Shown here piece after piece: positions 1 to 34,463 of a DNA stretch of 62,152 nucleotides; within the stretch, counting starts at the first letter, position 1, and each line of letters begins with the position of its first letter. This stretch comes from a virus (lineage: Duplodnaviria; Caudoviricetes). The notes below the pieces were generated by a model that did no database searches, had not been told where the DNA came from, and saw only the letters and a list, made by a program, of their open reading frames with translations. Made by a program: the position numbers and the translations under genes. Location: IMG/VR virus record IMGVR_UViG_3300035523_000151, positions 1 to 62,152 of that record. One strand, 5' to 3'.

Positions 1-1743
1 CTACTGGGCGTTGCGGGCTCCTCTCCCTGTGGCCGGGGCAAGGAGCCCCTTTTCGCGCAGCCGGTTGGCCATCCGTTTCAGCCCCATGTACGTTCGGCCC
101 AGCCGCCGGGCGATCTCCTGTTTGTCGGCCCAGGTGTAGGTCCGCTGGATGAACCGGATCTGTTTGTCGGTGAACATCGTGCCCTGGTAGTCGAGCTGGT
201 GGTACTCGGCACCGAAATACCAGCGCTCACCCAGCAGGCGGCCGGGCAACCGGACTCGATCCCCGAGCATGTCGAGGTGGACCGCCTGCCAGGTCACCGC
301 GATCCGCACTTCAAGTGCGGCGAGGACTGCCCGTTTTTCGCCGGTAGTGGTCGCCGTCTGAATGCTGCGCACGATTGTCCGGATATCACCGGCAGTCAGT
401 CGCTGGGGTACGGAGCGTTCCAGACCTGCCAGCCCCGTCTGAATCTCCGCTAGCTGCTCCGCATAGTCCCGGTTCTGCAGCCGGAACTGCTCTCGGGTGA
501 TCTCCCCGTCGTGCAGCAGCGTAAACAGTTGCCGGGTCAGGCTCTCGAGTTTTTGCCGGCGCTGCTCCAGTTCAGCCCGCTGGTGGGCGCCGTCGTTCCG
601 GGTCGGACGTTGTTCGACTGCCCTGATCAGGTCGTCCTGGCCATTGTGGCTCAAGGCGACGAGCACAGTCCAGACGGCCTCCTCCAGTTCGCCGGCGTGC
701 AGGGCCGGCATCGTGCAGCCATCCCGCAAAGTCTTCGGGTCTGCACACCAGTAATACCGGTCACTGCCGCGCCGCCCGTCGATCCAGCGCGTGGAGTGCT
801 GCGTCCACATCGGCCGGTTGCAGCAAGTGCATAGCACGTGGCCCCGGAGGAGGTGAGCGTCAACCCGGTCCAAGGCGGCGGACTTCCGGCCCTGGATGAC
901 CGTCTGTACCTGCGTCCACAGTTCGACCGGCACGATTGGCGCCCACTGACCGTCGTATACTTCTCCGTCGAAAGTGATCTGCCCGACGTAGGCCGAGTTG
1001 GTCAAGATCTTCCGGATGGTCGTTAAGGTCCATTCCTTGGCTGGATTGGCGCTGGGAATGCGCCGCTCCGTCAGGTAATCATGCACGGCCGCTATCGACC
1101 TGGTTGCTGCATAGGTCTCGTACATGGCCAGGAGGTGGCGGTGCGTCTCCGGGTCGGGCTCTAGCATGCCCTTGGCGTAGATCGTCCCGTATGGTGGCTT
1201 GCCTGGCGGGCGTTTGCCGCTTTTCGCCTTCGTGAGCCAGGTCTCCCAGATCTGCTCCGACAGCTCCTCGCTCTGATACTGGGCGAAGCTCGCCATGATG
1301 TTGCGGATTAGCCGGCCGGCCGGGGTGGATGTGTCGACCTGCTCCGTGACCGAGACAATGCCGCCGCCGCCGGCGGTCTCGACCAGGTCACAGATCTCCA
1401 GGAATTCACGTGCCCGGCGGGATAGCCGGTTGAACTTGAATACCACGACCTTGTTAATCTCGCCGCGCTTGACGGCATCCAACAGTCGCATCAGGCCCTT
1501 GCGCTTGGAGTAGTGCTGTCGGTAACCGCTTTCGTCCAGGTCGCTCTCCGTTATGACGACGTCCCAGCCCTGGGAGGCGCAATAGGACCGGGCGCGGTCC
1601 TCCTGCGTCTCCGGGCTGACAATCTCATCAGCCATGGCCCGGCCGCCGCTTGTGTGCTTTCGCTTATCCAGGCTGACCCGGACGTAGAGCCCCGCCCGGC
1701 CGTCCTGCTCCTCGGTTTGCCGGCGTTGCTGCCGCTTACCCAT
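1..1743 (-). CDS. Large serine recombinase (phage integrase) with a C-terminal HTH-like extension
   Basis: N-terminal resolvase motif YVRVS (catalytic Ser), DESG, VVVFKFNRLSR, recombinase domain (PYG..., ILTNSAYVG), Zn ribbon CTCC...YYWC...C, and a coiled coil. Confidence 0.95.
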   Translation of the reverse strand: MGKRQQRRQTEEQDGRAGLYVRVSLDKRKHTSGGRAMADEIVSPETQEDRARSYCASQGWDVVITESDLDESGYRQHYSKRKGLMRLLDAVKRGEINKVVVFKFNRLSRRAREFLEICDLVETAGGGGIVSVTEQVDTSTPAGRLIRNIMASFAQYQSEELSEQIWETWLTKAKSGKRPPGKPPYGTIYAKGMLEPDPETHRHLLAMYETYAATRSIAAVHDYLTERRIPSANPAKEWTLTTIRKILTNSAYVGQITFDGEVYDGQWAPIVPVELWTQVQTVIQGRKSAALDRVDAHLLRGHVLCTCCNRPMWTQHSTRWIDGRRGSDRYYWCADPKTLRDGCTMPALHAGELEEAVWTVLVALSHNGQDDLIRAVEQRPTRNDGAHQRAELEQRRQKLESLTRQLFTLLHDGEITREQFRLQNRDYAEQLAEIQTGLAGLERSVPQRLTAGDIRTIVRSIQTATTTGEKRAVLAALEVRIAVTWQAVHLDMLGDRVRLPGRLLGERWYFGAEYHQLDYQGTMFTDKQIRFIQRTYTWADKQEIARRLGRTYMGLKRMANRLREKGLLAPATGRGARNAQ

Positions 1744-1818
1744 GGCGCTCCCCCTGTGGTTTGGATTGTCAAAGACTAGTATACCATGGCGGCAACAGGG
1801 TAACGAATCGGAAAAGCG

Positions 1819-1846
1819 AAACCCCGCCGGGTGAGGGCGGGGTTTT
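1819..1846. terminator. Intrinsic terminator between the XRE gene and the integrase
   Basis: AAACCCCGCC-gggtgag-GGCGGGGTTT hairpin with A/T tails on both sides. Confidence 0.7.
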
Positions 1847-2072
1847 ATTCTCGATCTGGCACGTCCAGCAGCTCCGTAATCGCCACGCCGAGCACCCGGG
1901 CGTAGCTCACCAGTTCAGCGACTGACACATCCCGAATGCCGTTTTCAATCTCCGCCTGGCGCGGCTGGGTCAGCGTGCCATGCCCTCGCACTTGCATGCG
2001 GGCGACCAGTTGCTCCTGCGTCAGGTCCAGGAGCTTGCGGTAATCACGGATACGGGTTCCCAGGTTGGACAT
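1845..2072 (-). CDS. XRE-family HTH regulator (75 aa)
   Basis: LGTRIRDYRKLLDLTQEQL...IENGIRDVSVAELVSYARVLGV; ATG at 2072 preceded by GGAGG. Confidence 0.85.
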   Translation of the reverse strand: MSNLGTRIRDYRKLLDLTQEQLVARMQVRGHGTLTQPRQAEIENGIRDVSVAELVSYARVLGVAITELLDVPDRE

Positions 2073-2129
2073 GGCCGGCGCCTCCCGAGTCAGAACTCGG
2101 GTCCATGTTACCAACCCAGGAGGATATGG

Positions 2130-2158
2130 ATATACGATTATCGTATATTAGCTGTCAA
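2130..2158 (-). promoter_or_regulatory. Leftward promoter of the XRE gene with a perfect palindromic operator
   Basis: TTGACA on the minus strand (2158-2153); perfect 9-1-9 palindrome ATATACGAT-T-ATCGTATAT at 2130-2148 covering the spacer and -10. Confidence 0.65.
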
Positions 2159-2170
2159 TTTGCGGCGGCC

Positions 2171-2190
2171 TTGTCGAAAACGGTCGACAA
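2171..2190. promoter_or_regulatory. Inverted pair of Spo0A-box-like sites
   Basis: TTGTCGA-aaacgg-TCGACAA; TGTCGAA at 2172-2178 matches the 0A consensus TGNCGAA. Confidence 0.45.
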
Positions 2191-2217
2191 ACAGCAGACG
2201 ATAATTTCAAGCTATGG

Positions 2218-2245
2218 GCAGGAAATGTTTAGGCAGTCGCGGAAT
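2218..2245 (+). promoter_or_regulatory. Sigma-H-type promoter upstream of TPR cassette 1
   Basis: GCAGGAAAT-N12-GCGGAAT fits the B. subtilis sigmaH consensus RNAGGAWWW-N11/12-RNNGAAT. Confidence 0.55.
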
Positions 2246-2320
2246 CTGGATAATAGTCAAACTGCGCGATGATACGGGAAACGCAAACGGCCGCCAGGGG
2301 GAGGGCGGTCAAAGTTATTA

Positions 2321-2349
2321 TTGACGGTCTATCGACAGTCCGATATGCT
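2321..2349 (+). promoter_or_regulatory. SigmaA-type promoter of TPR cassette 1 with operator TATC-N8-GATA
   Basis: TTGACG-N17-TATGCT; operator TATCGACAGTCCGATA at 2330-2345. Confidence 0.7.
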
Positions 2350-2391
2350 AACGGTGAACGATATCCGGTTATCAATAGGGGAGTAGCGCAC

Positions 2392-3249
2392 ATGTCCAGT
2401 CTAGCGGAATTGTTGTGCTCTCAGGACTATCAGCAGCGAGTCGACACATGCCTGGAGGTCTTGGACGGTCGCCGTTCGGATCTCTCGCTTCGCGATTTGT
2501 CTGCGGAGGAATCTGCGCACATCCGTTATTTTCTGGCACATGCCTACCGGCAGTTGAATCGGCCGGCAGAGGCGTTGATGGTTTGCAATGAGGCTCTCCC
2601 CGACACCGTGTCTGTTCGGTGGCGCTCCATGATGCTGGAGTGTCGCGCCATGAGTCTGTATGATCTGGGGCGCCTGGACGAGATCCCCGGAGTGGTTGCC
2701 GAAGCCGAGCGGCTGGATTTGCCGGTGACGGTGAAAGGGCACCTGCTGGGGCTCCAAGGGTGCCTGTTGAGCCGCCAATTAGATCCAGCCGCCTTTTCCA
2801 CTTTTCAGGCAGCGGAAGATTTGTTCACGGATGCCAATCACGCCTATGGCGCCTCATGGGTGCAACGATCGGCGGCGGCCCTGGCCATCAAATTGAGCGG
2901 CCTGGACCGGGCTGATGAACTATTGTGCCGGGTGACGTTCCCGATGGTACTGCCAGAGGTCAGGCTGTTGCAAGCTCAGGTTCTGTATCTGCGTGGCCTC
3001 AAGTCAGAAAGCGCCGACCTGGTCAATCAGGTTATTTCCGGTTGCTGGGGCGAGCCAGCCGTCATTGATCGTGCCCGAGCGCACTACTTGCAGGCTGTGC
3101 GATTGGCCGATAATGGTCTGCTGGTTCAGGCCAGCGAGCAGGTCTATCAGGCGTTTGAGGAGCTCCGACTGCAACAGCGTTATGAGATTGACCTGACCGA
3201 CGCGTTAAATGCGCTGCGGTTCAAAATACGAAACTGGGGGGTTGCTTGA
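2392..3249 (+). CDS. TPR-repeat protein, putative RRNPP-like peptide receptor 1 (285 aa, no obvious HTH)
   Basis: All-helical TPR-like patterns (YFLAHAYRQLNRPAEAL, RAMSLYDLGRLDE, RARAHYLQA); RBS GGGGAG before ATG 2392; immediately followed by a small secreted-peptide gene. Confidence 0.7.
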   Translation: MSSLAELLCSQDYQQRVDTCLEVLDGRRSDLSLRDLSAEESAHIRYFLAHAYRQLNRPAEALMVCNEALPDTVSVRWRSMMLECRAMSLYDLGRLDEIPGVVAEAERLDLPVTVKGHLLGLQGCLLSRQLDPAAFSTFQAAEDLFTDANHAYGASWVQRSAAALAIKLSGLDRADELLCRVTFPMVLPEVRLLQAQVLYLRGLKSESADLVNQVISGCWGEPAVIDRARAHYLQAVRLADNGLLVQASEQVYQAFEELRLQQRYEIDLTDALNALRFKIRNWGVA

Positions 3250-3399
3250 ATGCGTTCGAAATGGTTTGTGATGGGAATCGCGGTATTGCTGGTGGCCTTG
3301 GCAATGTTCCTGCTTCCGGGCGTCACAGGTGCATGTACCGGTTCTAGCGGCGGCTCCGATCCCTGCCCGGACAGCGTTGTAATCTGGCCGCTCAAATAA
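3250..3399 (+). CDS. Small secreted propeptide 1 (49 aa): MRSKWFVMGIAVLLVALAMFLLPGVTGA-CTGSSGGSDPCPDSVVIWPLK
   Basis: Translated by hand; ATG directly after the TPR stop (TGA-ATG); basic n-region, hydrophobic h-region, TGA cleavage-like site; followed by a terminator. Confidence 0.75.
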   Translation: MRSKWFVMGIAVLLVALAMFLLPGVTGACTGSSGGSDPCPDSVVIWPLK

Positions 3400-3415
3400 G
3401 CAGTAGAGCGTATAG

Positions 3416-3443
3416 AAACCCCCGGTCAATCGACCGGGGGTTT
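3416..3443. terminator. Bidirectional terminator between peptide 1 and the repressor
   Basis: AAACCCCCGGTC-aatc-GACCGGGGGTTT perfect hairpin. Confidence 0.8.
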
Positions 3444-4094
3444 GCTATTGCTATTTCGTACGCCTAGCAGGACATCCATTTGCCGTTCCAAGAGTTCTGG
3501 CAGCAGTCGATTGTCAATTGCTCTGACGATGACCGCCAGGTAAGCGCCGGCCTCTGAATGTTCCAGTAGGCGTCTGAGATTTTCATCCGTGGGGCCTGGG
3601 TCGCCACGCAGCAGAAACTGCACTGGCACCTGGGCTCTTTCGTTCAGTTGGGTTAGTAGCCAAGGAGAGACATCGCTGCCGCTCAGTAGGGCGGTGATGT
3701 GTTCCTCGGTCGTTTGCAGTCGGGCGGCGATTGCCGACGCCGAGAACGCGGTAACCAACTGCTGCAAACACCAAACCGCCCGAGGGCGAGCCTCGAACTC
3801 CTGCAACTCCAGGATCTCGCCGGGCTTCAGTGTGCCAAAACGAGCACGCCAGAACCAATTCAAAGAGTCCGCCGGGCCAGCATCAGCGGGTGAATCATCG
3901 GCCGTCAAGGTGGCGAGGTCAACGCTTAATGCCCGGGCGATCTTGCTGAGAAGATCCAAACCGGGCTTGCTGACTCCGCCTTCGATTTCGCTTAGTCGCC
4001 CCTGCGAAATGCCTGCTGCTTTTGCCAAGGCGTTTTGGGATTTGAACCCCTTAACGACCCGCAAGGTGGCGATGCGTTGACCGATATTGCTCAT
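3426..4094 (-). CDS. Probable CI-like immunity repressor (N-terminal XRE HTH, second degenerate HTH, no S24 peptidase domain)
   Basis: IGQRIATLR...SQNALAKAAGISQGRLSEIEGG...LSKIARALSV; divergent from the early operon. Confidence 0.8.
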   Translation of the reverse strand: MSNIGQRIATLRVVKGFKSQNALAKAAGISQGRLSEIEGGVSKPGLDLLSKIARALSVDLATLTADDSPADAGPADSLNWFWRARFGTLKPGEILELQEFEARPRAVWCLQQLVTAFSASAIAARLQTTEEHITALLSGSDVSPWLLTQLNERAQVPVQFLLRGDPGPTDENLRRLLEHSEAGAYLAVIVRAIDNRLLPELLERQMDVLLGVRNSNSKPPVD

Positions 4095-4143: not shown

Positions 4144-4159
4144 TATCGACAATCAGATA
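4144..4159. promoter_or_regulatory. Operator copy TATCGACAATCAGATA upstream of the repressor
   Basis: Matches the TATCGACAnTCnGATA copies at 2330 and 4232 (inverted). Confidence 0.65.
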
Positions 4160-4222: not shown

Positions 4223-4251
4223 TTGAATTCCTATCCGAATGTCGATAAAAT
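4223..4251 (+). promoter_or_regulatory. Main early (PR-like) promoter with overlapping operator
   Basis: TTGAAT-N17-TAAAAT; operator TATCCGAATGTCGATA at 4232-4247. Confidence 0.7.
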
Positions 4252-5124: not shown

Positions 5125-5472
5125 GTGGGGAGGATGAACACCACCGCGAACCCCGCTCCGGTGAAACCGGCGTTCGGCCCGGCTCAGGCTCACGTTCTGG
5201 CCGCTGCGCTGGAGACGTTTGGCAAGATGCTGGATAGCGAAGTGATCCGAGCCGAGCTGTTCTATTACGGCAATTCTCGGGTGCACATGGGCAACGCCGG
5301 ATTCCGGCGGTTGTTCACCACGTACTGGCTGGAAGATCGCGGCCGTGGGTCGTATCCCTTCCAGGCATGTGCGCAGATTGGCCGCACCGTGTTCTACGCC
5401 CTGATCGAAGCCGACCAGGTACCTGAATGGCGGGCAGCAGCTTCGCCTGCACCCCAGGAGGCCACGGCATGA
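5125..5472 (+). CDS. Hypothetical protein
   Basis: Operon context; stop overlaps the next ATG. Confidence 0.55.
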   Translation: MGRMNTTANPAPVKPAFGPAQAHVLAAALETFGKMLDSEVIRAELFYYGNSRVHMGNAGFRRLFTTYWLEDRGRGSYPFQACAQIGRTVFYALIEADQVPEWRAAASPAPQEATA

Positions 5473-6515
5473 ACCTGATCTACATCACCGATACCCAGTG
5501 GCGGGGCACGTCGCCCCGCTCCCGACTGGACAACCTCCCGGCGACCCAGATCCTGAAGCTCCGCGAAACGCTGCGACTGGCCCGGGCGCACCGGGCCGCC
5601 GCCATCCTGCACGGCGGGGACCTGTTCGACCGGCCCGATACCGCCCCGGCCGTGGTGCTGGAGTACATGCAGGTTATCCGGGAAGAGGCGCCCTGCCCGA
5701 TCCTGGCCATCGCCGGGAACCATGACATCTTCGGCTACAACCCCAGTACGCTGCCGCAGACCATGCTGGGCTTGATGAACGGCGCCGGCCTGGTGCATGT
5801 GATTCAGCCCGGACACCCTCGGCTCCTGGAGCAAAACGGCCTGACCGTCCAGGTGACCGGCCAGCCGTTTCACGCCGAACTGGACCGCCGGGACCCGATG
5901 CTCGACTACATCGTCCACCCCGCCGACGACCCGTGCGACGCCCTGCACCGCCGGCAGTCCGGCACTGACTTCGCCATCCACCTGACCCACGGCATGCTCC
6001 TCGAAAAGCCCTTCCTGGATGGTGTCGCCCATACGCTGCTCTCCGATGTCTACAGCCCGGCCGTGACCCTGGCCGATGTGACATTCGGCGCTCACTATCA
6101 TCCGGGTTGGAGTCGGATTTACACCGACCGGCACGGCATGACCTGGTGCAACCCCGGCGCCCTCTCCCGGATGACCAACGACGTGAGCGACATGACCCGG
6201 CCGATTCAGGCCGTGCTGGTGACGCTCGAAAAGGGTCATACGCCCCGGCTGGAGTTCATCCCGCTGGAGTCTGCCCGGCCCGCCGACGAAGTCATCGACC
6301 GGACGATCCCGGCCGCCGAACTGGCCCGTGAGCAGGCCCAGCAGGATGTGCTGAACGGTCTCGGCGACACCAGCCGCCTGCAGGTGGTGGCCGTGGAGGC
6401 GATGCTGAACGAGATCGCCGGCAGCACCGGCGTCGCCCCGGAGGTTCGGGAAGAAGCGCTGAAACGCCTGGCCATCGCTCAGGCAGAGGCAGCGCGACGG
6501 GAGGCGGCAGCATGA
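5469..6515 (+). CDS. sbcD: SbcD/Mre11-like metallophosphoesterase nuclease
   Basis: TDTQ, GGDLFD, AGNHD, THG, GAHYH and NPGAL phosphoesterase motifs. Confidence 0.85.
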   Translation: MNLIYITDTQWRGTSPRSRLDNLPATQILKLRETLRLARAHRAAAILHGGDLFDRPDTAPAVVLEYMQVIREEAPCPILAIAGNHDIFGYNPSTLPQTMLGLMNGAGLVHVIQPGHPRLLEQNGLTVQVTGQPFHAELDRRDPMLDYIVHPADDPCDALHRRQSGTDFAIHLTHGMLLEKPFLDGVAHTLLSDVYSPAVTLADVTFGAHYHPGWSRIYTDRHGMTWCNPGALSRMTNDVSDMTRPIQAVLVTLEKGHTPRLEFIPLESARPADEVIDRTIPAAELAREQAQQDVLNGLGDTSRLQVVAVEAMLNEIAGSTGVAPEVREEALKRLAIAQAEAARREAAA

Positions 6516-7993
6516 AGCACATCGCCAAGTTGCGCCTGGAGAACTTCCAGAGCCACGTTGATTCGACGCTGGAGTTCAGCCCCGGCCTGAACATCCTGAC
6601 CGGCGAGAGCAACCACGGCAAATCGGCCGTGCTCCGGGCCCTGTACTGGCTCCTGTACAACCGGCCACAGGGCGTCGACCATGTCCGCTATGGCTGCCGG
6701 GAGTGCCGCGTGACGGTGACCATGAGCGACGGCGCTGAGATCGTCCGGGAACTGCGGCTGGCACCGAACGGCGCCGCCGCCCGGAACCGCTACACAGTCA
6801 CTCAGCCCGGCGGTGAACCGCAGGTATTCGAGGGGTTCGGCCAGCAGGGGATTCCGCAGCAGGTGACCCAGGCGCACGGCATGCCTATCGTGGCGCTGGA
6901 TGACGATCGGAAGCTGTCGCTCTCGTTCGGGTCGCAGCTCGAAGGCCCGTTTCTGCTCACCGAAACGGGCAGCATGCGAGCGGCGGCAATTGGCCGGTTG
7001 CTCGGGGCTCATGTGGTGGACGCCGCAATCCGAGACCTGCAGCAGGATCTGCAGCGAAACGGCGAGGCTGTCGCCACGCTGGAGGCCGACCTGACTGGCT
7101 ACGACGCCAAACTGGAGCCTTTCGCTGATCTGCCGCAGCAGGCGGCCCAACTGGAGGCGGCGGCGCAGATCATCGCAGCGATCCCGGCCCTGCAGCAGCG
7201 GGTCGACCAACTGCAGGGATTCCGGACCCGGCGAGATCAGATCGCCGCTGACGGAGCAGCGATCGCCGCCACCCTGACCGCACTGGCCGGCATCGATATG
7301 GCCGCCCTGCACCTGGCGCAAGCCAGGACGGCGCACGGTCGGGTGACGCTGCTCGGCACCTTCCGGGACCGCCGCCAGGTCATTCAGACCACGGCTGACC
7401 GCATCGCCGCCGTTCTGGCAGAGACGGCCGGCGTCGAAGCGGCGCAGGCGCACTTGACCGCCGCCCGAGTTGCCGAAGAACGGCGCAAGCAACTCGCCCC
7501 GTTGGTGTTCGAGACCGAACGCCTGCGACTGGCCAGGCTCAATATTGCGGACGCCCTGACTCAGACCGCCGGTGTGCCGGAGGCCGCCCAGGCCCTGACG
7601 GCCGCTCAGGCCGCCCACACCCGCATTCAGAACCTGGCCCCTCTCCGGGAGCGCCGGGACCGCATCCAGGCCGAGCGGGTCCGGATTGACCGGGCACTGG
7701 CCGAGACCGCCGGTGCCGAAGCCGCCGCAGTCACCCTCACGGCCGCCCGGCAGGTCCAGGACCGCATGAACCTCCTGGCCGGGCTCCGGGTGCGCCGGGA
7801 AACCCTCGCCGTGCAGCGCCAGCAAACCGAGGCGATCATCACACGGGCCAATGTCGACCTGGACACCCTGACCGCCGAATACGCTCAGACCCTGGTCGAA
7901 GCGAGAATCTGCCCGACCTGCGGGCAGTCAATTTCAGAAGCCGCGGCCGATGTCGCCGCCAATCGCAAAGGAGGACACGCCCATGCCGCTTGA
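6512..7993 (+). CDS. SbcC/Rad50-like ATPase, N-terminal half (Walker A, coiled coil, Zn hook)
   Basis: LENFQSH, GESNHGKS Walker A, Q-loop region, repeated coiled coil, C-terminal CPTCG. Confidence 0.85.
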   Translation: MKHIAKLRLENFQSHVDSTLEFSPGLNILTGESNHGKSAVLRALYWLLYNRPQGVDHVRYGCRECRVTVTMSDGAEIVRELRLAPNGAAARNRYTVTQPGGEPQVFEGFGQQGIPQQVTQAHGMPIVALDDDRKLSLSFGSQLEGPFLLTETGSMRAAAIGRLLGAHVVDAAIRDLQQDLQRNGEAVATLEADLTGYDAKLEPFADLPQQAAQLEAAAQIIAAIPALQQRVDQLQGFRTRRDQIAADGAAIAATLTALAGIDMAALHLAQARTAHGRVTLLGTFRDRRQVIQTTADRIAAVLAETAGVEAAQAHLTAARVAEERRKQLAPLVFETERLRLARLNIADALTQTAGVPEAAQALTAAQAAHTRIQNLAPLRERRDRIQAERVRIDRALAETAGAEAAAVTLTAARQVQDRMNLLAGLRVRRETLAVQRQQTEAIITRANVDLDTLTAEYAQTLVEARICPTCGQSISEAAADVAANRKGGHAHAA

Positions 7994-10823: not shown

Positions 10824-11015
10824 GTGAGGTCCACGCTCGGTATCGCAATCGTCGCACTGGCCCTCGCCGCCGTGGTCCTGCTGATGCTGGTCGCGGTAGG
10901 CGCTGCCGGTCTGACATGGGTGATTACTTACACCGGCAGGCCGTTGCTCTTACTTGGCGCTGCGACGTCAACCTCCTGCGCCGGTCATCCCGGCTACACC
11001 AGCGGCTTCGTCTGA
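10824..11015 (+). CDS. Possible small hydrophobic membrane peptide (63 aa)
   Basis: LGIAIVALALAAVVLLMLVAVGAAGL hydrophobic stretch; AGGAAAGG upstream; lies inside the structured region, so coding status is uncertain. Confidence 0.35.
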   Translation: MRSTLGIAIVALALAAVVLLMLVAVGAAGLTWVITYTGRPLLLLGAATSTSCAGHPGYTSGFV

Positions 11016-18890: not shown

Positions 18891-20390
18891 TTGGCAGCAC
18901 CGATGCACCACCAGGTAAGTCTTTTTGACGAGTCGGCGCCGCCCCGCCCCAAAGTGGTCAAGAAACCCGCCACCAAACCCCGCAAGCCGTCCCGCGGCGA
19001 GTTCGAACCCATCGCTCCGCCAAACCTCGCCCAGGAGTCCGCCCTGTGGCTCACCGGTCAACGATCCATCGAGGCCCAGCGTGGCAAACGGTACGTCCCT
19101 GCTTCGGTCAAACACCCCGGCAAGATGCAGCCCGACGTGTGCGGGGCCATCATCGATACCTACACCGAACCCGGTTGGCACATCGTTGATGCCATGGGCG
19201 GCATCGGTACCACCGGGGTTGAGGGCGCCGAGCGGGGCCGCCATGTGACCTGCGTAGAGCTGGTGCGGCACTGGGCGAACGTCGCCTATGCCAACAGCGT
19301 TCGGACGGCGTACCGGGGTGCACCGGGCACCATGCGGGTCATTCACGGTGACGCCCGGCGACTGCCGGAGTTGCTGGCAGGGCTGATGGATGCGGCTGTG
19401 TTTTCACCGCCGTACGGGGAGGCGCTGGAGCAGCGCACCGGGAGGATGGAGGGGCGAGCAGAGAGGTTGCGGCAAGCGATTCAGGACGGCGGCCAACTGC
19501 GTGGCAACTGGCACTTTGGCGCCGGACAGCGAGCGATGATGGCCCCTCAGTACGATGCCGCCGTGATGTCCCCGCCCTTCGGCCCGACGCAGACCGGTCG
19601 GGGTATGGCGCTCACCGGCATCAACGGCGACGGCCGCCCGCCGGTTGAACGGGGCATCGGCGCTACATATGACGTAGCCGTGTTCTCTCCGCCCTACGGC
19701 CCTGCGGATACCGCGGGCGAGGACCTGACCCGCCGGACGAGTGCAGCGGTGGTGGACGAGAAGGGCCTCGGGTACCGCTGGAAGGGGTTCGGGCAACGGC
19801 ATTACGCTTCCACCAACCATGACGGTCCACAAGTCGACGCCGTAATCACCAGCCCCGCTTACGGCGACATTCGCCAGGACGGCGGCGACCACCAATTCGG
19901 CGAAGGCTCCGCGATGACGAACTACACTGGCGAAGCCCGGGTCAAGAAGGGCGCCCGCGACCGCACCAACGTCGGCAACCTCAAGTACGGCAGCATGGAC
20001 AAGGCCCTGATCATCGCTGCCCGGCTCACGGCAGGGGAGGCCATCCCCGAAGCCGAGTGGCCGGACATGCAGTACCTGGAGACGATGGTCCTCATCTACC
20101 GGGGCTGCTGGCAGGTGGTGCGGCAGGGCGGTCTCTGCATCCTGGTGCTGAAAGATTACAGGAGAGACAAACGCCGGGTCAACCTGGTGGGCGACACCAT
20201 CCGGCTCATGGAGGCTGTTGGCTGGCTGCTGCACGATCGGGCGCTGGCGCTCACCAGCAAAATCGACAACGGCCAGGTCATCAGCAAGGTGTCCCCGTTC
20301 GTCCGACTCAACGCTCGCAAGCCCGAGAAGAACGGCGGCAAAGTCCTCCTGCCCTGTGGCGAAGACATCCTCGTGTTCCGGAAGGAGTGA
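18891..20390 (+). CDS. Amino-type (N4-C/N6-A) DNA methyltransferase with four repeated SPPY-like motifs
   Basis: HPGKM, VDAMGGIGTT (motif I), GDAR; DAAVFSPPY / DAAVMSPPF / DVAVFSPPY / DAVITSPAY; C-terminal EDILVFRK. Confidence 0.8.
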   Translation: MAAPMHHQVSLFDESAPPRPKVVKKPATKPRKPSRGEFEPIAPPNLAQESALWLTGQRSIEAQRGKRYVPASVKHPGKMQPDVCGAIIDTYTEPGWHIVDAMGGIGTTGVEGAERGRHVTCVELVRHWANVAYANSVRTAYRGAPGTMRVIHGDARRLPELLAGLMDAAVFSPPYGEALEQRTGRMEGRAERLRQAIQDGGQLRGNWHFGAGQRAMMAPQYDAAVMSPPFGPTQTGRGMALTGINGDGRPPVERGIGATYDVAVFSPPYGPADTAGEDLTRRTSAAVVDEKGLGYRWKGFGQRHYASTNHDGPQVDAVITSPAYGDIRQDGGDHQFGEGSAMTNYTGEARVKKGARDRTNVGNLKYGSMDKALIIAARLTAGEAIPEAEWPDMQYLETMVLIYRGCWQVVRQGGLCILVLKDYRRDKRRVNLVGDTIRLMEAVGWLLHDRALALTSKIDNGQVISKVSPFVRLNARKPEKNGGKVLLPCGEDILVFRKE

Positions 20391-28040: not shown

Positions 28041-29879
28041 ATGCATCGGGCACAGCAGCAGCGATTGCAGTGGCGCCCCGGCCAGGTGGAGGTCGAAATG
28101 CATCCGGCCGGCAGCGGCCTGAAACATCAGATAACCATCGCCGATCTGAGAGAGTTAGTCGTCGACAATTTCGCCGGCGGCGGTGGGGCCAGCACCGGGA
28201 TAGCACTGGCCATCGACCGCAGCGTCGACATCGCCATCAATCACGACCCGGCCGCGATTGCTATGCACCAGGCAAACCACCCAGACACCCTGCACCTGTG
28301 CGAGTCTGTCTGGGAGGTCAATCCCCGCAAAGTGACGCAAGGGCAACCTGTGGGCCTTGCGTGGTTCTCACCGGATTGCACTCATTTCAGCAAGGCGAAG
28401 GGCGGCAAGCCGGTCTCCAAGAAGATCAGGGGTCTTGCCTGGGTCGCTGTCCGCTGGGTGGCTCAGGTCCGCCCAAGGGTCATCATGATCGAGAACGTGG
28501 AGGAGTTCGTCACCTGGGGACCGCTGATCGCAGCACGTGATACGGAAACCGGAAGGCTACTCAAAAAGGTGTATGGGGAAGACGGCGAGAGCTGTGATAT
28601 AGTCGTTGCCGCTCCCGGTGAAGAGGTGCCTTTAGAACTTCGGGTTATGCACCCCGACCCGAAGCGCAAGGGCCAGACCTTCCGGGCATTCGTAAACAAG
28701 CTCCGGAAGTTCGGCTACCAGGTGGATTGGAAAGAGCTGCGGGCGTGTGATTACGGGGCGCCGACCATCCGCAAACGCTTTTTCCTCGTCGCCCGGTGCG
28801 ACGGCTGGCCGATCGTGTGGCCCGAGCCGACTCACGGCGACCCTAAGAGCAAGGCGGTGCAATCCGGAAAGCTCCAACCGTGGCGGACTGCCGCCGAAAT
28901 CATCGATTGGTCGATTCCATGCCCGTCGATCTTTGAGCGCAAGCGCCCGCTGAAGGAGGCAACGTTAAGGCGGATCGCCCGGGGCATTATGAAGTTCGTC
29001 ATAAACAACGCCACTCCATTCATCATCCCCGTCACGCACCACGGCTCTGATCGGGTAGCATCAATCGACGCACCATTCCCAACGATTACGGCGGCGCACC
29101 GCGGCGAGCACGCACTCATTACACCCGTTATCGACCGGCAGTTCACCCGCTCCACCGCCAACGCCGCAGACGAACCTTTGGGGACCATCACCGCCGGCGG
29201 CAGCGGAAAGGCCAACCTGGTTACAGCGTTTTTGACTCAGTATCATACCGAAGCTACCAACTCGGCAGTACGTGGCCAGACCGTGGACAAGCCGCTGCTG
29301 ACTCAGGACGCGTCGAATCGCTACGGCCTGGTAGCTGCATCTCTGGTCAAGCACTACGGCGGTGGCTATACAGGCGCCGGCAATGACCCGGGCGAGCCGT
29401 TATCCACGGTCACTGCAGTCGACCACAACGCCCTTGTCACCAGCCACATGATCAAGATGTACGGTACAAACGTGGGTCAAAGGACGGACGAGCCCCTGCA
29501 CACGATTACAGCCGGCGGCTTCCACCTGGGCGAGGTCAGGGCTTTCCTCCTGAAATATTACAGCACCAACGTTGGTCAGGAACTTGACGAACCTCTACAG
29601 ACTGTCACCACCAAACACCGCTTCGGACTCGTGACCGTCCATGGCGAGGATTACCAAATCATAGACATCGGCATGCGAATGCTCGAACCCCGCGAACTGT
29701 TCAAAGCAAACGGGTTTCCCGACGACTACATCATCGACGTGGAGATTAACGGCAAGAAGTGCTCGAAAGCATCCCAGGTTGCCCGGTGCGGCAACGCTGT
29801 GCCGCCGCATTTCGTCAAGGCGTTGGTAGAGGCGAACCTGCCGGAGATGTGTGGGCAGATTAGTGCGGCAGCGGTGTAA
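28041..29879 (+). CDS. C5-cytosine DNA methyltransferase
   Basis: DNFAGGGG, FSPDC (catalytic PC variant), IENV, YGAPTIRKR, RML.PREL, CGNAV. Confidence 0.92.
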   Translation: MHRAQQQRLQWRPGQVEVEMHPAGSGLKHQITIADLRELVVDNFAGGGGASTGIALAIDRSVDIAINHDPAAIAMHQANHPDTLHLCESVWEVNPRKVTQGQPVGLAWFSPDCTHFSKAKGGKPVSKKIRGLAWVAVRWVAQVRPRVIMIENVEEFVTWGPLIAARDTETGRLLKKVYGEDGESCDIVVAAPGEEVPLELRVMHPDPKRKGQTFRAFVNKLRKFGYQVDWKELRACDYGAPTIRKRFFLVARCDGWPIVWPEPTHGDPKSKAVQSGKLQPWRTAAEIIDWSIPCPSIFERKRPLKEATLRRIARGIMKFVINNATPFIIPVTHHGSDRVASIDAPFPTITAAHRGEHALITPVIDRQFTRSTANAADEPLGTITAGGSGKANLVTAFLTQYHTEATNSAVRGQTVDKPLLTQDASNRYGLVAASLVKHYGGGYTGAGNDPGEPLSTVTAVDHNALVTSHMIKMYGTNVGQRTDEPLHTITAGGFHLGEVRAFLLKYYSTNVGQELDEPLQTVTTKHRFGLVTVHGEDYQIIDIGMRMLEPRELFKANGFPDDYIIDVEINGKKCSKASQVARCGNAVPPHFVKALVEANLPEMCGQISAAAV

Positions 29880-32655: not shown

Positions 32656-32690
32656 CACGCCCTAAACACGCTCACAACTCTCCGCGCCCG

Positions 32691-32745
32691 TGTCGAACGG
32701 TGTCATGCATGCGGCATGGACAAATGCCATAAATTCCCTGATAAT
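32691..32745 (+). promoter_or_regulatory. Promoter of TPR cassette 2 with an upstream Spo0A-box-like site
   Basis: TGTCGAA at 32691-32697; TGGACA-N17-GATAAT at 32717-32745. Confidence 0.5.
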
Positions 32746-32776
32746 GGGGTTCGTCGGGAGCGAATATGATGGGGGG

Positions 32777-33649
32777 ATGACGGTGGAGGAAATGTTGGGC
32801 TACCTGGAGACCTGCCAGTACCCACAGGCCTGGGCGCAGTTCGTCCGGCTGCGCACCGCGGGGCCGGTGACGGCGAGTCTGCTGCTGCGGGGCAGTCATG
32901 CGGCATTCGGGCTGCGGGACCTGGCCGAGGCCCGCGAACTGGCGGAGGCGGCACTGGCGAAGTATCCGCACAGCGGTGAGCCGACCCGGCGGCTGGGGCA
33001 GATCCGTTTTCACCTGGCCATGGTGCGCCGGGAACTGGGCGATGCGGCCGGGGCGCTGACGCAATTCGACACGTACCTGACCGAACTGCCCACGCTCTAC
33101 CCGGACCTGGCCGGGACGGAGGGGAAGGCGCACTTCTACCGGGCGCTCTGCCTGCGCCAGCAGGAAGCCCTGGAGGCCGCTGCGGGGGCCTACGAGGAGG
33201 CCCTGCGGCTGATGCCCCCCGCTGATCCGCTGGCCGTCAAGGCCCGCCAGAACGCGGCGTGGGTGCTGTGCCTGCTGAACCGGGGCGAGGCGGCCCAGGA
33301 GCACCTGGCCGCGGCTCGCCCGCTCGCAGGCGACTCCATCGACCGGGCACACCAGACGCTGGGTGAGGCGTTCCTGGCACTCGTCACCGGAGACTCTGCG
33401 CAGGCGGCGGCGCTCTGCGAGCAGCTTTTCCGGACCTCGCACCAGGGGGAAATCACTGACACCGAGGTGCTGTCGCAGGCGGCGTGGCTGGCAGGTCGGG
33501 CCGCCATGGCGCAGCAGCGGTGGGAGGCGGCGGCGGGCCTCGCCGGTGTGGCCGTGACGTTCGCGGCCGATGCGCGGGACGCCCGGCTGATCAACGATGC
33601 TGCGGCGCTGCGGGCGCAGGTGCAGCTGCATCGGAGCGGGGTGCAATAG
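32777..33649 (+). CDS. TPR-repeat protein, putative RRNPP-like peptide receptor 2 (~290 aa, no obvious HTH)
   Basis: Clear TPRs (IRFHLAMVRRELGDAAGALTQF, AHFYRALCLRQQEALEAAAGAYEEAL, ARQNAAWVLCLLNRGEAAQEHL); start uncertain within 32777-32795. Confidence 0.75.
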   Translation: MTVEEMLGYLETCQYPQAWAQFVRLRTAGPVTASLLLRGSHAAFGLRDLAEARELAEAALAKYPHSGEPTRRLGQIRFHLAMVRRELGDAAGALTQFDTYLTELPTLYPDLAGTEGKAHFYRALCLRQQEALEAAAGAYEEALRLMPPADPLAVKARQNAAWVLCLLNRGEAAQEHLAAARPLAGDSIDRAHQTLGEAFLALVTGDSAQAAALCEQLFRTSHQGEITDTEVLSQAAWLAGRAAMAQQRWEAAAGLAGVAVTFAADARDARLINDAAALRAQVQLHRSGVQ

Positions 33650-33707
33650 CACCCCCGGCTCCGCGGGTCCGGTTTCGCCGGGAGATTAAATCGGGGGAGG
33701 GTTTACA

Positions 33708-33875
33708 TTGAAGAAGAAGCTTGCGGCTTTGGTCCTGGCCGTGGTTCTGGCGTTGGGCGTGGCTGGTGTGGCGTCGGCCGAACACGGCAACATCGGCGGC
33801 GTTGGTGTTGGTGGCGTCGTGACCACGCTGGAGCAGGGAACCGGCGGGCCGATTGGCGGCGTCGGGACCCGGTAG
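33708..33875 (+). CDS. Small secreted propeptide 2 (55 aa): MKKKLAALVLAVVLALGVAGVASA-EHGNIGGVGVGGVVTTLEQGTGGPIGGVGTR
   Basis: Translated by hand; GGGGAGGG RBS before TTG; textbook Sec signal peptide with ASA cleavage; internally repeated IGGVG. Confidence 0.85.
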   Translation: MKKKLAALVLAVVLALGVAGVASAEHGNIGGVGVGGVVTTLEQGTGGPIGGVGTR

Positions 33876-33902
33876 CACCGGGTCTGTGCGGCGAAGGGAG
33901 GG

Positions 33903-34463
33903 GTGAGGGTGGAATACGTTGTCACCGGCGAGGATGCGCTGCGGGGCCTGGTGCGCGCCGCCAGACGCGGCCAAGGCCTGCGACTTCACGACGTTGCAGA
34001 TAGCGCCGGCGTTTGTATCGGTCACCTGGCCAACTTCGAGAGAGGGGATCGCTCGATGTCGCCGCCGCTGCTATTGAGGACGCTCGCGGCGCTGAACCTG
34101 CAGGTGATTGTGCGTTCTCCCTACCCTCCCGACGCCGCCTGCCCGCATCCTCACTTAAATGTTGATACGAGTGAGGCGACGGCGGAATACCGCATTACCG
34201 ACGTGGGCCAACTGCGCGCCCTGATGCGTGCCGCCCGGCACGGTCAGAGACTGCGACTTCGGGATGTCGCACTGCACGCTCATGGCTGCGACACTCACAT
34301 CAATTCTTGGGAGATGAGCGGCGGCGGAATGTCCCTGCCCGTGCTCTTAACGACGTTGCAGTCGCTCGGGTTGCCGCTGGTGGTACGCTCGGGTTATCCG
34401 CCCGCACCCTACATGCCGTTCAGCCAGAAATACCCGCGGCGAACAGGTTCTGCTTCTGCCTGA
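33903..34463 (+). CDS. Tandem XRE/HipB-like HTH protein
   Basis: Two homologous repeats LR.L.RAAR.GQ.LRL.DVA....MS.P.LL.TL..L.L...VRS.YPP. Confidence 0.75.
   Translation: MRVEYVVTGEDALRGLVRAARRGQGLRLHDVADSAGVCIGHLANFERGDRSMSPPLLLRTLAALNLQVIVRSPYPPDAACPHPHLNVDTSEATAEYRITDVGQLRALMRAARHGQRLRLRDVALHAHGCDTHINSWEMSGGGMSLPVLLTTLQSLGLPLVVRSGYPPAPYMPFSQKYPRRTGSASA

What the first reader, a model, noticed from the sequence alone, without database searches (positions are those of the whole stretch)
2321..3443. HTH-less TPR receptor plus secreted Cys2 propeptide embedded in the immunity region (candidate new arbitrium-like switch)
Seen: a 285-aa TPR-like gene is followed with no gap by an unannotated 49-aa ORF. 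That ORF has a Sec-type signal and the predicted mature part CTGSSGGSDPCPDSVVIWPLK, and a terminator follows. The pair sits between an XRE gene and the CI-like repressor. Known: RRNPP systems (Rap-Phr, AimR-AimP, NprR-NprX) have this receptor-then-propeptide layout; AimR carries an HTH and Rap carries a 3-helix bundle. Inference: this receptor has no recognisable HTH, the repressor has no S24 self-cleavage domain, and no ImmA-like protease gene is adjacent. The TPR protein may therefore act as a peptide-controlled antirepressor by direct protein contact. The two Cys residues suggest a possibly disulfide-cyclised signal, unlike linear AimP/Phr peptides.
Basis: partly seen in the sequence, partly recalled or inferred. 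Interest (0 to 1): 0.85.

Follow-up and report, generated by a model that had tools for sequence, protein, structure and literature searches.

The report
Candidate peptide-sensing module in prophage switch
A soil prophage carries, inside its lysis-lysogeny control region, a repeat-protein gene coupled to a tiny gene for an exported peptide; this looks like a new version of the peptide "talk" systems some phages use to choose between killing and dormancy, but no experiment has tested it.

Summary
A 285-aa all-helical TPR protein (2392-3249) is followed with no gap (TGA then ATG) by a 49-aa ORF with a signal-peptide-like N-terminus. A strong hairpin comes next. The pair lies between a 75-aa XRE gene and an HTH_3 repressor that has no S24 domain.

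- **Family:** the TPR protein belongs to a small, unnamed family (26 hits in 1.84 billion cluster representatives).
- **Second locus:** only one relative could be seen in its DNA context (L003). It has the same four-gene layout, with a 43-aa signal-peptide-like ORF overlapping the TPR stop codon. That peptide has no cysteine, so neither the lipoprotein reading nor the disulfide idea is conserved.
- **Wiring:** the TPR promoter carries, in its spacer, the same 16-bp operator found twice in the repressor/early-gene intergenic region. The pair is therefore probably tied to the immunity switch and silent in established lysogens.
- **Fold:** generic TPR, with no specific sequence link to Rap, NprR, PlcR or AimR.

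Best reading (about 0.5): an RRNPP-like receptor and propeptide pair acting through protein contacts, closest in logic to Rap-Phr/Rco of pLS20. Peptide binding and the receptor's target are inferred, not shown. It is a new variant of a known kind. A second, unrelated TPR plus signal-peptide ORF pair lies at 32.7-34.5 kb.

The parts
1845..2072 (-). 75-aa XRE-family HTH protein, transcribed divergently from the TPR operon. It is the most conserved part of the module.
   Evidence: Pfam HTH_3 E 8.3e-08. It is 62% identical over 71 aa to the XRE at the same position in L003. A hairpin at 1819-1845 follows it.
2132..2146 (.). Palindrome ATACGATTATCGTAT, the candidate XRE operator, 60 bp upstream of the XRE start codon. 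It lies between a minus-strand TTGACA (2158-2153) and TATATC (both read by eye).
   Evidence: It is the only match to ATACGA-N3-TCGTAT (up to 1 mismatch) in the window; 2 of 100 shuffles gave any match. The same motif occurs once in L003, 57 bp upstream of its XRE start; 0 of 200 shuffles matched. The two align.
2321..2349 (+). Promoter-like site of the TPR-propeptide operon (TTGACG, 17 nt, TATGCT).
   Evidence: L003 has TTGACC-17-TATATT (10 of 12, with TG) just upstream of its TPR gene.
2330..2345 (+). Third copy of the 16-bp immunity operator (TATCGACAGTCCGATA), lying in the spacer of the TPR promoter.
   Evidence: The pattern TATCGACANTCNGATA (up to 2 mismatches allowed) has exactly 3 matches in 62 kb, all with 0 mismatches. 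Expected by chance 0.07; 0 of 100 shuffles gave 3. The pattern was derived from these three sites.
2392..3249 (+). 285-aa cytoplasmic TPR-like protein without an HTH, the candidate peptide receptor.
3250..3399 (+). 49-aa ORF, translationally coupled to the TPR gene (TGA then ATG). It has a signal-peptide-like N-terminus and a 21-aa hydrophilic tail. Candidate propeptide.
   Evidence: GC is highest at the third codon position in this frame (0.54/0.52/0.64). The counterpart in L003 is at 3383-3514.
3416..3443 (.). Perfect 12-bp-stem hairpin between the convergent propeptide and repressor genes. Candidate bidirectional terminator; it overlaps the repressor stop codon.
   Evidence: An equivalent hairpin in L003 at 3518-3547 was called terminator-like on both strands.
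3426..4094 (-). 222-aa CI-position repressor: an HTH_3 domain (about residues 1-65) plus a C-terminal domain of about 150 aa with no known family.
   Evidence: It is 30% identical over 174 aa to the L003 counterpart, including the motif SL(N/S)WFWRA. The closest solved HTH is SinR (E 2.3e-4). The C-terminal domain has no relatives by word search.
4144..4159 (+). Operator copy (TATCGACAATCAGATA) in the repressor/early-gene intergenic region. It overlaps a candidate repressor promoter, read by eye.
4223..4251 (+). Promoter-like site for the early rightward genes (TTGAAT-17-TAAAAT). Operator copy 4232-4247 sits in its spacer, with the same geometry as the TPR promoter: the operator starts 9 nt after the first base of the -35 and overlaps the first 2 nt of the -10.
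   Evidence: positions read.

Best explanation
The pair is an RRNPP-like cell-to-cell signalling module built into the phage's lysis-lysogeny switch.

**Shown**
- The TPR gene and the small ORF form one operon, with a promoter-like site, coupled translation and a strong hairpin that looks like a terminator.
- The small ORF keeps a signal-peptide-like N-terminus and a short, fast-diverging hydrophilic tail in both loci seen.
- The operon lies between a conserved XRE, which has its own conserved palindrome, and a CI-position repressor.
- The TPR promoter carries the same 16-bp operator, in the same spacer position, as the early rightward promoter.

**Inferred**
1. The repressor (or its Cro-like antagonist) binds all three operators. 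The operon would then fire with the early genes on infection or induction and be shut off in an established lysogen.
2. The propeptide is exported by Sec and trimmed outside the cell. A short piece, probably from the C-terminal tail, is re-imported.
3. That piece binds the concave face of the TPR protein.
4. The TPR protein has no DNA-binding domain, so it acts by protein contact. My preferred guess is that free TPR antagonises the non-cleavable repressor or the XRE, and that the peptide switches it off. High peptide, meaning many infections, would then favour lysogeny.

My odds:

| Step | Odds |
|---|---|
| Real, co-translated gene pair | about 0.9 |
| Peptide exported | about 0.75 |
| Peptide sensed by the TPR protein | about 0.5 |
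| Output through the repressor or XRE | about 0.3 |
For: **Family**
- 26 of 1.84 billion cluster representatives match at E <= 0.001, and most are 248-291 aa.
- 23 of them were aligned; identity to the window protein is 23-39%.

**Fold**
- The family profile hits consensus TPR proteins at E 5.7e-39.
- Foldseek's top hits are all TPR solenoids. They include Rap of phage phi3T (8rst, rank 10, TMq 0.50), Rap of pLS20 with Phr* (6t46, rank 19) and NprR (5dbk, rank 30).

**Conserved module in L003**
- The order is XRE, TPR, then a 43-aa ORF (MKRWLIALALAVVVAMTLAGSALADGGGTLPSPNVATNSTTGN) whose ATG overlaps the TPR stop as ATGA.
- An AAGGAGGTGA Shine-Dalgarno sequence lies inside the TPR 3' end. A hairpin and a convergent repressor follow.
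- This holds even though L003 has a tyrosine integrase and the window a serine integrase.

**Signal-peptide likeness** (my own heuristic)
- 4 of 396 small ORFs pass in the window and 1 of 33 in L003. In both loci the ORF right after the TPR gene is among them.

**Divergence pattern**
- XRE 62%, repressor 30%, TPR about 23%, peptide tails not alignable.
- Fast divergence of receptor and peptide fits a specificity pair.

**Link to the switch**
- The 16-bp operator has 3 matches in 62 kb: two in the repressor/early intergenic region and one in the TPR promoter spacer. Chance expectation is 0.07.
- The geometry matches that of the early promoter.

**No alternative induction route seen**
- No S24 or M78 protease in the window.

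**Family C-termini**
- 14 of 23 members have [EG]V in their last 10 residues, in a tail modelled at pLDDT below 50.
- In the two loci seen, these codons hold the Shine-Dalgarno sequence of the small ORF. This hints, by inference only, that the coupled ORF is widespread in the family.

**RRNPP signature in print**
- Small propeptide, Sec export, receptor of 250-500 aa, TPRs, direct neighbours (PMC10075063, passages).
Against: - **Context:** only 1 related locus could be seen in DNA. The contexts of the other 21 aligned homologues are unknown.
- **Fold:** the match is generic. LGN/Pins, kinesin light chain and SNAP score as well as or better than Rap and NprR. No Foldseek hit reached E <= 0.001.
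- **Sequence:** none of the best 60 of 77 PDB profile matches is a Rap, NprR, PlcR, AimR, PrgX or Rgg entry by name.
- **Model quality:** the structure model is single-sequence, and four of five models scored 46-59.
- **Export:**
  - No SignalP or LipoP was run.
  - The hydrophobic stretch of the window peptide is 21 residues long and could be a membrane anchor.
  - VTGAC could be a lipobox.
- **Binding:** nothing shows peptide binding, re-import or a target protein.
- **Operator:** the motif was derived from the very three sites it matches. Who binds it is inferred. L003 ends inside its repressor gene, so operator sharing could not be checked there.
- **Host:** unknown. The source is a soil metagenome provirus, and whether the host has an oligopeptide permease is unknown.
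Confidence: 0.5

Rival explanations
1. The module is aimed at the host, like Rap-Phr of phage phi3T. The TPR protein binds a host regulator (for example one controlling sporulation, competence or another density-dependent pathway), and the peptide reports lysogen density. The phage switch itself is not the target.
For: - The receptor has no HTH, as in Rap.
- Rap of phi3T is among the structural hits.
- The same prophage carries a second, unrelated TPR plus signal-peptide ORF pair at 32.7-34.5 kb.
- Phages with several such systems, some proposed to manipulate the host, are in print (PMC10075063, passages).
Against: - The synteny with XRE and repressor is conserved across two phages with different integrases.
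- The immunity operator sits in the TPR promoter, which implies silence in lysogens. A host-manipulating prophage module would be expected to be expressed in lysogens.
Confidence: 0.15
2. The small ORF encodes a surface lipopeptide or membrane peptide that protects the lysogen, for example by superinfection exclusion. This would resemble the lipoprotein and membrane-protein genes found between integrase and repressor in some Gram-positive phages (Ltp, Sie2009; recalled, not checked here). The TPR protein would be a cytoplasmic helper or an unrelated regulator.
For: - The window peptide has VTGAC followed by a short tail, which fits the old PROSITE lipobox rule (recalled).
- The pair lies between integrase and repressor.
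- Tail and endolysin relatives point to a host with a single membrane.
Against: - The L003 peptide has no cysteine at all, so lipidation is not conserved.
- The mature tails are only 19-21 aa, rich in G/S/T/P, and not alignable. That is little to build an exclusion protein from.
- The operator in the promoter spacer predicts repression in the lysogen, the state in which exclusion genes must be on.
- No PADLOC or PHROG family hit for either protein.
Confidence: 0.1
3. The TPR protein is a regulator or antirepressor on its own. The small ORF would be a translated but non-signalling leader-like membrane peptide, or have only a minor role.
For: - TPR proteins commonly act through protein contacts.
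- Nothing here shows peptide binding.
- Modules in which a transcription factor sits divergent from a small protein that inactivates cI, and so induces prophages, are in print for Vibrio phages (PMC10432266; only the abstract start in a search listing was seen).
Against: Two very divergent loci both keep the coupled start, the embedded Shine-Dalgarno sequence, the signal-peptide-like N-terminus and a terminator placed after the small ORF rather than before it.
Confidence: 0.15

Closest known systems
RappLS20 / Phr*pLS20 / RcopLS20 of Bacillus subtilis plasmid pLS20
   Same: - An HTH-less TPR protein acts as antirepressor of an XRE-type repressor by direct binding.
- A Sec-exported, re-imported peptide encoded next to it switches it off (PMC7641744, abstract).
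- The solved Rap-Phr* complex 6t46 is among the fold matches (rank 19, TMq 0.50).
- This is the mechanism I consider most likely here.
   Different: - It controls conjugation, not a phage switch.
- Rap proteins are about 360-365 residues in the listed chains, against 285 aa here.
- No sequence relation was detected.
- Here the receptor operon carries the repressor-type operator in its own promoter.
- Binding to the repressor is not shown.
Arbitrium (AimR-AimP-AimX) of SPbeta-like Bacillus phages
   Same: - A phage-encoded TPR receptor gene is followed by a small signal-peptide propeptide gene.
- It is proposed to bias lysis versus lysogeny.
- Expression with the early genes is inferred here, and recalled for arbitrium.
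   Different: - AimR binds DNA through an HTH and activates aimX (abstracts of PMC6458997 and PMC13220667 in the listing).
- Here there is no HTH.
- Nothing like aimX lies downstream: a terminator and the convergent repressor follow.
- No sequence relation was detected.
RRNPP candidate systems found by RRNPP_detector in Firmicutes and their phages
   Same: - The locus meets the published layout: small propeptide, receptor of 250-500 aa with TPRs, direct neighbours (PMC10075063, passages).
- The configuration 'QSS, divergently transcribed c1 repressor, operon' and phages with more than one system are described there.
   Different: - This receptor family has no named relatives.
- It is absent from 50,697 deposited phage records and 72,556 plasmids by tblastn.
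- Whether it is one of that paper's unnamed clusters could not be checked, because the supplements were closed.
- Single Pfam TPR models do not reach that tool's stated E < 1e-5 for this protein.
Rap-Phr of phage phi3T
   Same: A phage-borne, HTH-less TPR receptor with an adjacent exported Phr peptide. Structure 8rst is rank 10 in the fold search.
   Different: - It lies outside the immunity region, and it is proposed in print to act on host pathways (proposal: PMC10075063, passage; the location is recalled).
- It is longer (about 364 residues in the chain listed).
- No sequence relation was detected.

Membership tests
RRNPP signature (five criteria of Bernard et al. 2023, PMC10075063) | Propeptide is small (10-100 aa) | tested here: met
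   49 aa in the window and 43 aa in L003.
RRNPP signature (five criteria of Bernard et al. 2023, PMC10075063) | Propeptide is predicted by SignalP to be exported by Sec | tested here: inconclusive
   SignalP was not available. My own heuristic passes both peptides (4 of 396 and 1 of 33 small ORFs pass). The window peptide could instead be a lipoprotein or a membrane anchor.
RRNPP signature (five criteria of Bernard et al. 2023, PMC10075063) | Receptor is 250-500 aa | tested here: met
   285 aa. Family members are mostly 248-291 aa.
RRNPP signature (five criteria of Bernard et al. 2023, PMC10075063) | Receptor matches TPR HMMs (E < 1e-5, coverage > 65% in that tool) | tested here: inconclusive
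   Pfam TPR models reach at best E 7.6e-4, below their cut-offs. The family profile hits consensus TPR proteins at E 5.7e-39. The Gene3D, Superfamily and SMART models that tool also uses were not available.
RRNPP signature (five criteria of Bernard et al. 2023, PMC10075063) | Receptor and propeptide genes are direct neighbours | tested here: met
   TGA then ATG in the window; ATGA overlap in L003.
RRNPP(A) receptors as a family by descent (Rap, Rgg, NprR, PlcR, PrgX, AimR) | Detectable sequence or specific structural relation to a known subfamily | tested here: not met
RRNPP(A) receptors as a family by descent (Rap, Rgg, NprR, PlcR, PrgX, AimR) | The mature peptide is re-imported and binds the TPR groove, changing receptor activity | not testable with these tools
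   Needs binding assays or peptide docking. The mature tail (21 aa) is below the 30-residue size advised for the complex tool.
Arbitrium (AimR-AimP-AimX) | The receptor carries an N-terminal HTH and binds DNA | tested here: not met
   No HTH family at E <= 1 in the 285-aa protein. Only two short helices precede the repeats in the model.
Arbitrium (AimR-AimP-AimX) | An aimX-like effector lies downstream of the propeptide gene | tested here: not met
   The small ORF is followed by a hairpin and the convergent repressor gene.
Rap-Phr | An N-terminal three-helix bundle plus about seven TPRs, roughly 360-380 aa (sizes partly recalled) | tested here: inconclusive
   285 aa and 15 helices in a single-sequence model. 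Group-A family members have a conserved N-terminal segment of about 35 aa with two cysteines, whose fold I could not compare.
Peptide-gated antirepressor circuit (RappLS20/RcopLS20 type) | The TPR protein binds the XRE-type repressor and removes it from DNA | not testable with these tools
   No usable computational answer was obtained. It needs a pull-down, a two-hybrid assay, or EMSA with and without the TPR protein.
Ltp-type lipoprotein or Sie membrane-protein exclusion genes (features recalled) | A lipobox cysteine or membrane anchor is conserved, and the gene is expressed in the lysogen | tested here: not met
   There is no cysteine in the L003 peptide. An immunity operator lies in the promoter spacer. 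Expression itself was not measured.

The most novel reading that the evidence does not exclude
A family of short, HTH-less TPR receptors, unrelated by sequence to the known ones, each with its own Sec-exported propeptide, has been built into the immunity region of temperate phages of uncultured soil bacteria. The receptor acts as a peptide-gated antagonist of a CI-position repressor that cannot cleave itself. The receptor operon is itself under the repressor's operator, which would give a communication-controlled bistable switch that evolved independently of arbitrium. The same phage carries a second, unrelated TPR/peptide/HTH module, so it may 'speak' two peptide languages. In the window's branch of the family, two conserved N-terminal cysteines in the receptor go together with two cysteines in the peptide. 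Both are absent in L003. This leaves room for a thiol- or metal-mediated contact between receptor and peptide.
Probability: 0.25. Interest if true: 0.75.

Novelty: new variant of a known kind. Interest (0 to 1): 0.6.

Why it matters
Peptide communication that steers lysis versus lysogeny has been shown by experiment only for AimR-type, DNA-binding receptors of Bacillus phages. The reviews and surveys I read describe RRNPP receptors as a Bacillota trait (passages in PMC10075063 and PMC12700828).

If this module works as proposed, it would add three things:
- a receptor family with no sequence link to the known ones;
- a different output, protein contact instead of DNA binding;
- a simple, testable wiring, with the receptor operon under the immunity operator.

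It would come from a 63% GC soil phage that has no close relative among deposited phages. It would also supply new receptor and peptide pairs for synthetic signalling.

If it does not work this way, it remains a well-defined conserved four-gene immunity cassette of unknown logic.

Tried and rejected
**Searches for relatives in DNA context mostly failed**
- Single-protein scans of viral and genome contigs found none.
- Alignment-based scans found none in viral contigs, in genome contigs, or in the first metagenome scan.
- The second metagenome scan gave the single locus L003.
- A scan with the XRE alignment gave 26 viral loci. None of the 26 encodes a TPR family member by hmmsearch with the family profile at E <= 1. 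They are ordinary XRE genes and were dropped.
- A scan with the repressor alignment gave none.
- tblastn of the TPR protein against deposited phages and plasmids gave no match.
- The repressor matched 6 phage records, through its HTH only. The XRE matched none.
- Word-based protein searches found only the window's own proteins for the TPR protein, the peptide and the repressor C-terminal part.

**Complex prediction**
- TPR alignment plus repressor alignment gave 'no answer' (score 0.00, mark 0.32, controls not run). This is no evidence either way.

**Repressor structure**
- Mean pLDDT was 55, and the C-terminal domain was below 50. That is too poor for a fold search, so none was run.

**Sequencing runs**
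- One DNA holder was listed, a soil metagenome that may be the source. No RNA holder was listed.

**Host**
- Terminase, integrase and DnaB relatives are all below 40% identity and taxonomically mixed.
- The tail protein hits 238 records, led by phages of Microbacterium (166), Bacillus (28) and Paenibacillus (13), with no Gram-negative host among the genera and hosts listed.
- The amidase hits 29 records, 27 of them Bacillus phages.
- So the host probably has a single membrane, but the phylum is not settled.

**Ideas rejected**
- Chance ORF: rejected because of L003 and the coupling signals.
- Disulfide-cyclised signal as a family feature: rejected because L003 has no cysteine.
- XRE as a split-off HTH of the receptor: judged unlikely, because the XRE is divergently transcribed and has its own operator and terminator.
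- Relation between the two TPR proteins of the window: none found (hhalign probability 0.8%, BLASTP E 0.45).

**Papers and supplements**
- Supplements were closed. Whether this family is among the unnamed clusters of PMC10075063 could not be checked.
- My statement that no such HTH-less receptor in a phage immunity region is in print rests only on two searches and the passages read.
Full report
**What is there**

The window is an IMG/VR provirus record of 62,152 bases with 63% GC. It is siphovirus-like:
- a large serine recombinase at the left end;
- SPP1-type Dit, a Prophage_tail protein, a tape-measure protein and a terminase on the minus strand;
- DnaB, two DNA methylases and an SbcCD-like nuclease on the plus strand.

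The finding covers one transcription unit. Its parts, in order:
- a promoter-like site at 2321-2349;
- a 285-aa gene at 2392-3249;
- a 49-aa ORF at 3250-3399 whose ATG directly follows the TGA of the first gene;
- a perfect 12-bp-stem hairpin at 3416-3443 that folds strongly on both strands.

To the left, a 75-aa XRE gene (1845-2072) is transcribed divergently. To the right, a 222-aa HTH_3 repressor gene (3426-4094) runs convergently and is itself divergent from the early rightward genes.

**The large protein**

- Single Pfam TPR models hit only below their thresholds, and no HTH family appears at E <= 1.
- PHROGs, PADLOC and NCBIfam give nothing useful.
- An exhaustive HMMER search of 1.84 billion cluster representatives found 26 proteins at E <= 0.001, 17 at <= 1e-10 and 8 at <= 1e-30.
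- I aligned 23 sequences: the window protein plus 22 homologues. I left out the window's own shorter gene call, two long multi-repeat proteins and a 147-aa fragment. Identity to the window protein is 23-39%.
- A profile of this alignment matches designed consensus TPR proteins at E 5.7e-39, then PPR, SNAP and SRP72 proteins. None of the best 60 of 77 matches is a Rap, NprR, PlcR, AimR, PrgX or Rgg entry.
- A single-sequence AlphaFold2 model has 15 helices and mean pLDDT 78.4. The other four models scored 46-59, so confidence is fragile.
- Foldseek against the PDB gave no hit at E <= 0.001. The best hits are TPR solenoids of every kind: Pins/LGN, kinesin light chain and SNAP. Rap of phi3T, Rap of pLS20 and NprR sit among them at TM about 0.5.

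So it is a cytoplasmic TPR-type solenoid without a DNA-binding domain. It is RRNPP-like in shape and size, but descent from the known RRNPP receptors is not shown.

**The small ORF**

Its product is MRSKWFVMGIAVLLVALAMFLLPGVTGACTGSSGGSDPCPDSVVIWPLK. It has a basic N-terminus, a 21-residue hydrophobic stretch, a small-residue site, and then 21 hydrophilic residues.

No SignalP was available. By my own heuristic, 4 of 396 small ORFs in the window look like this. GC is highest at the third codon position in this frame, though the contrast is modest. The cysteine after VTGA also fits a lipobox (rule recalled), so the window alone cannot separate a free peptide from a lipopeptide.

**The second locus**

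All scans of viral, genome and metagenome contigs failed except one. That one returned a 4,099-base metagenome contig, L003, which encodes family member P0025. L003 has the same order of genes:
- an integrase, here a tyrosine recombinase;
- an XRE gene on the opposite strand;
- a promoter-like site (TTGACC-17-TATATT);
- the TPR gene;
- a 43-aa ORF (MKRWLIALALAVVVAMTLAGSALADGGGTLPSPNVATNSTTGN) whose ATG overlaps the TPR stop as ATGA, preceded by AAGGAGGTGA inside the TPR coding sequence;
- a strong hairpin;
- a convergent repressor gene, cut by the contig end.

Identities between the two loci:

| Component | Identity |
|---|---|
| XRE | 62% |
| Repressor (including the C-terminal domain) | 30% |
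| TPR protein | about 23% |
| Peptide tails | not alignable |

The L003 small ORF is the only one of 33 small ORFs in that contig that passes my signal-peptide heuristic. It has a classic Ala-X-Ala site and no cysteine.

Three things follow. The coupled, exported small ORF is a conserved part of the module. Lipidation and a disulfide are not conserved. Receptor and peptide diverge much faster than the XRE, as expected of a specificity pair. This rests on two loci only.

**Regulatory DNA**

Two motifs stand out.

1. *A palindrome, ATACGA-N3-TCGTAT.*
   - It occurs once in the window (2132-2146, 60 bp upstream of the XRE start) and once in L003 (57 bp upstream of its XRE start).
   - Chance matches appeared in 2 of 100 and 0 of 200 shuffles.
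   - It is the likely XRE operator. In the window it lies between a minus-strand TTGACA and TATATC, which I read by eye.
2. *A 16-bp motif, TATCGACANTCNGATA.*
   - It has exactly three matches in the 62-kb window, all perfect even though two mismatches were allowed.
   - Two are in the repressor/early intergenic region (4144-4159, 4232-4247) and one is in the spacer of the TPR promoter (2330-2345).
   - The expectation is 0.07, and 0 of 100 shuffles gave three.
   - At both the TPR promoter and the early rightward promoter-like site (4223-4251), the operator starts 9 nt after the first base of the -35 and overlaps the first two bases of the -10 (read).
   - The motif was derived from these sites. 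Even so, a third perfect copy of 14 fixed bases in 62 kb is very unlikely by chance.

My inference is that the same protein, most simply the repressor, shuts both promoters. The TPR-peptide operon would then be an early gene set that is silent in the established lysogen. This fits a decision-time signalling role. It argues against a lysogen-protecting exclusion function.

**How it probably works**

The pair meets the layout that defines RRNPP systems in print: a small Sec-exported propeptide next to a 250-500-aa TPR receptor (PMC10075063, passages). The receptor has no HTH, and the window has no S24 or ImmA-type protease. The repressor also carries an unknown C-terminal domain conserved in L003. 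I therefore favour an output by protein contact.

The best-studied analogue is RappLS20. It pulls the XRE-type repressor RcopLS20 off DNA and is switched off by the imported Phr* peptide (PMC7641744, abstract). Applied here:
- free TPR protein made early in infection would hold back the repressor (or the XRE) and favour lysis;
- accumulated peptide would inactivate the TPR protein, let the repressor win, and the repressor would then close the TPR promoter.

Only the gene arrangement, the coupling signals, the operators and the conservation are shown. Export, re-import, peptide binding and the target are inferred. One attempt to co-fold the TPR protein with the repressor gave no answer and counts for nothing.

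**Comparison and novelty**

- *Arbitrium:* this is not a member. There is no HTH, nothing like aimX, and no homology.
- *Rap family:* it cannot be filed here by descent.
- *Where it fits:* it works most like Rap-Phr systems of mobile elements. Its placement next to a cI-type repressor, and the presence of more than one system in a phage, both have precedents (PMC10075063, passages).
- *What is new:*
  - the receptor family, which is unnamed and absent from 50,697 phage and 72,556 plasmid records;
  - the conserved four-gene cassette with its own XRE and operator;
  - the immunity operator in the receptor promoter;
  - the setting in a 63% GC soil provirus.
- *Host:* the tail and endolysin relatives come from phages of Bacillota and Actinomycetota, and the host phylum is unresolved. 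The papers I read describe RRNPP receptors as a Bacillota trait. An Actinomycetota or other host would raise the interest.

**A second module**

At 32690-33649 (+) lies a 319-aa protein with a TPR_2 hit above the Pfam cut-off. It is followed by:
- a 55-aa ORF at 33708-33875 with a textbook signal peptide, preceded by GGGGGAGG;
- a 186-aa protein at 33903-34463 made of two HTH-like halves (HTH_31; the repeat was read by eye).

This TPR protein is unrelated to the first. No relatives were found in one viral scan or in the PDB. This phage may therefore carry two peptide-signalling candidates.

**Verdict**

The most likely function is an RRNPP-like receptor and propeptide pair wired into the immunity switch (confidence about 0.5). 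The antirepressor step is a reasoned guess (about 0.3). The finding is a new variant of a known kind, with interest 0.6.

Noticed in passing
window 32690-34463 (+): A second, unrelated TPR protein (319 aa, TPR_2 above the Pfam cut-off) is followed by a 55-aa ORF with a classic signal peptide (33708-33875, TTG start behind GGGGGAGG). A 186-aa protein with two HTH-like halves follows (33903-34463). The group lies at the end of the plus-strand genes, next to the lysis genes. It is possibly a second peptide-signalling module in the same prophage.
   Followed up: partly
window 2392-2500; alignment A1 columns 12-45: Most family members of the window's branch share an N-terminal motif, roughly LCxL....ER..C..LL, with two conserved cysteines. 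The window peptide has two cysteines. The L003 receptor lacks this N-terminal segment and its peptide has no cysteine. This is only two loci, so it is a lead rather than a correlation.
   Followed up: no
C-termini of P0001 and 22 homologues: 14 of 23 family members have [EG]V in their last 10 residues, in a tail modelled with pLDDT below 50. In the window and in L003 these codons hold the Shine-Dalgarno sequence of the coupled small ORF. The protein-level conservation may therefore reflect an RNA-level constraint.
   Followed up: partly
window 1845-4094 versus the rest: The TPR, peptide and repressor genes have lower third-position GC (0.62-0.66) than the integrase, nuclease, terminase and tape-measure genes (0.76-0.85). 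XRE (0.72) and DnaB (0.63) fall between or below. This suggests that the immunity cassette has a different history from much of the phage.
   Followed up: no
window 10824-11015 (+): A 63-aa ORF with a basic N-terminus and a long hydrophobic stretch. It is one of the 4 of 396 small ORFs that pass my signal-peptide heuristic, and is more likely a small membrane protein.
   Followed up: no
window 5427-7993 (+), 18891-20390 (+), 28041-29879 (+), 36228-37025 (-): The early region encodes an SbcD-like and SbcC-like nuclease pair, an N6/N4-type methylase (below the Pfam cut-off) and a C5 cytosine methylase. A T5orf172/MUG113-domain protein lies between the lysis and tail genes.
   Followed up: no
L003 about 1600-2077 (+): Between the tyrosine integrase and the XRE gene of L003 lies an ORF whose C-terminal part reads as two membrane helices followed by several CxxC pairs (zinc-ribbon-like). 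It has no counterpart in the window. Read by eye.
   Followed up: no
window 3426-4094 (-): The closest solved relative of the repressor's HTH is SinR of Bacillus subtilis (E 2.3e-4, HTH only). From recall, a small protein antagonist controls SinR by direct binding. The C-terminal domain of about 150 aa has no relatives by word search and was modelled poorly.
   Followed up: partly
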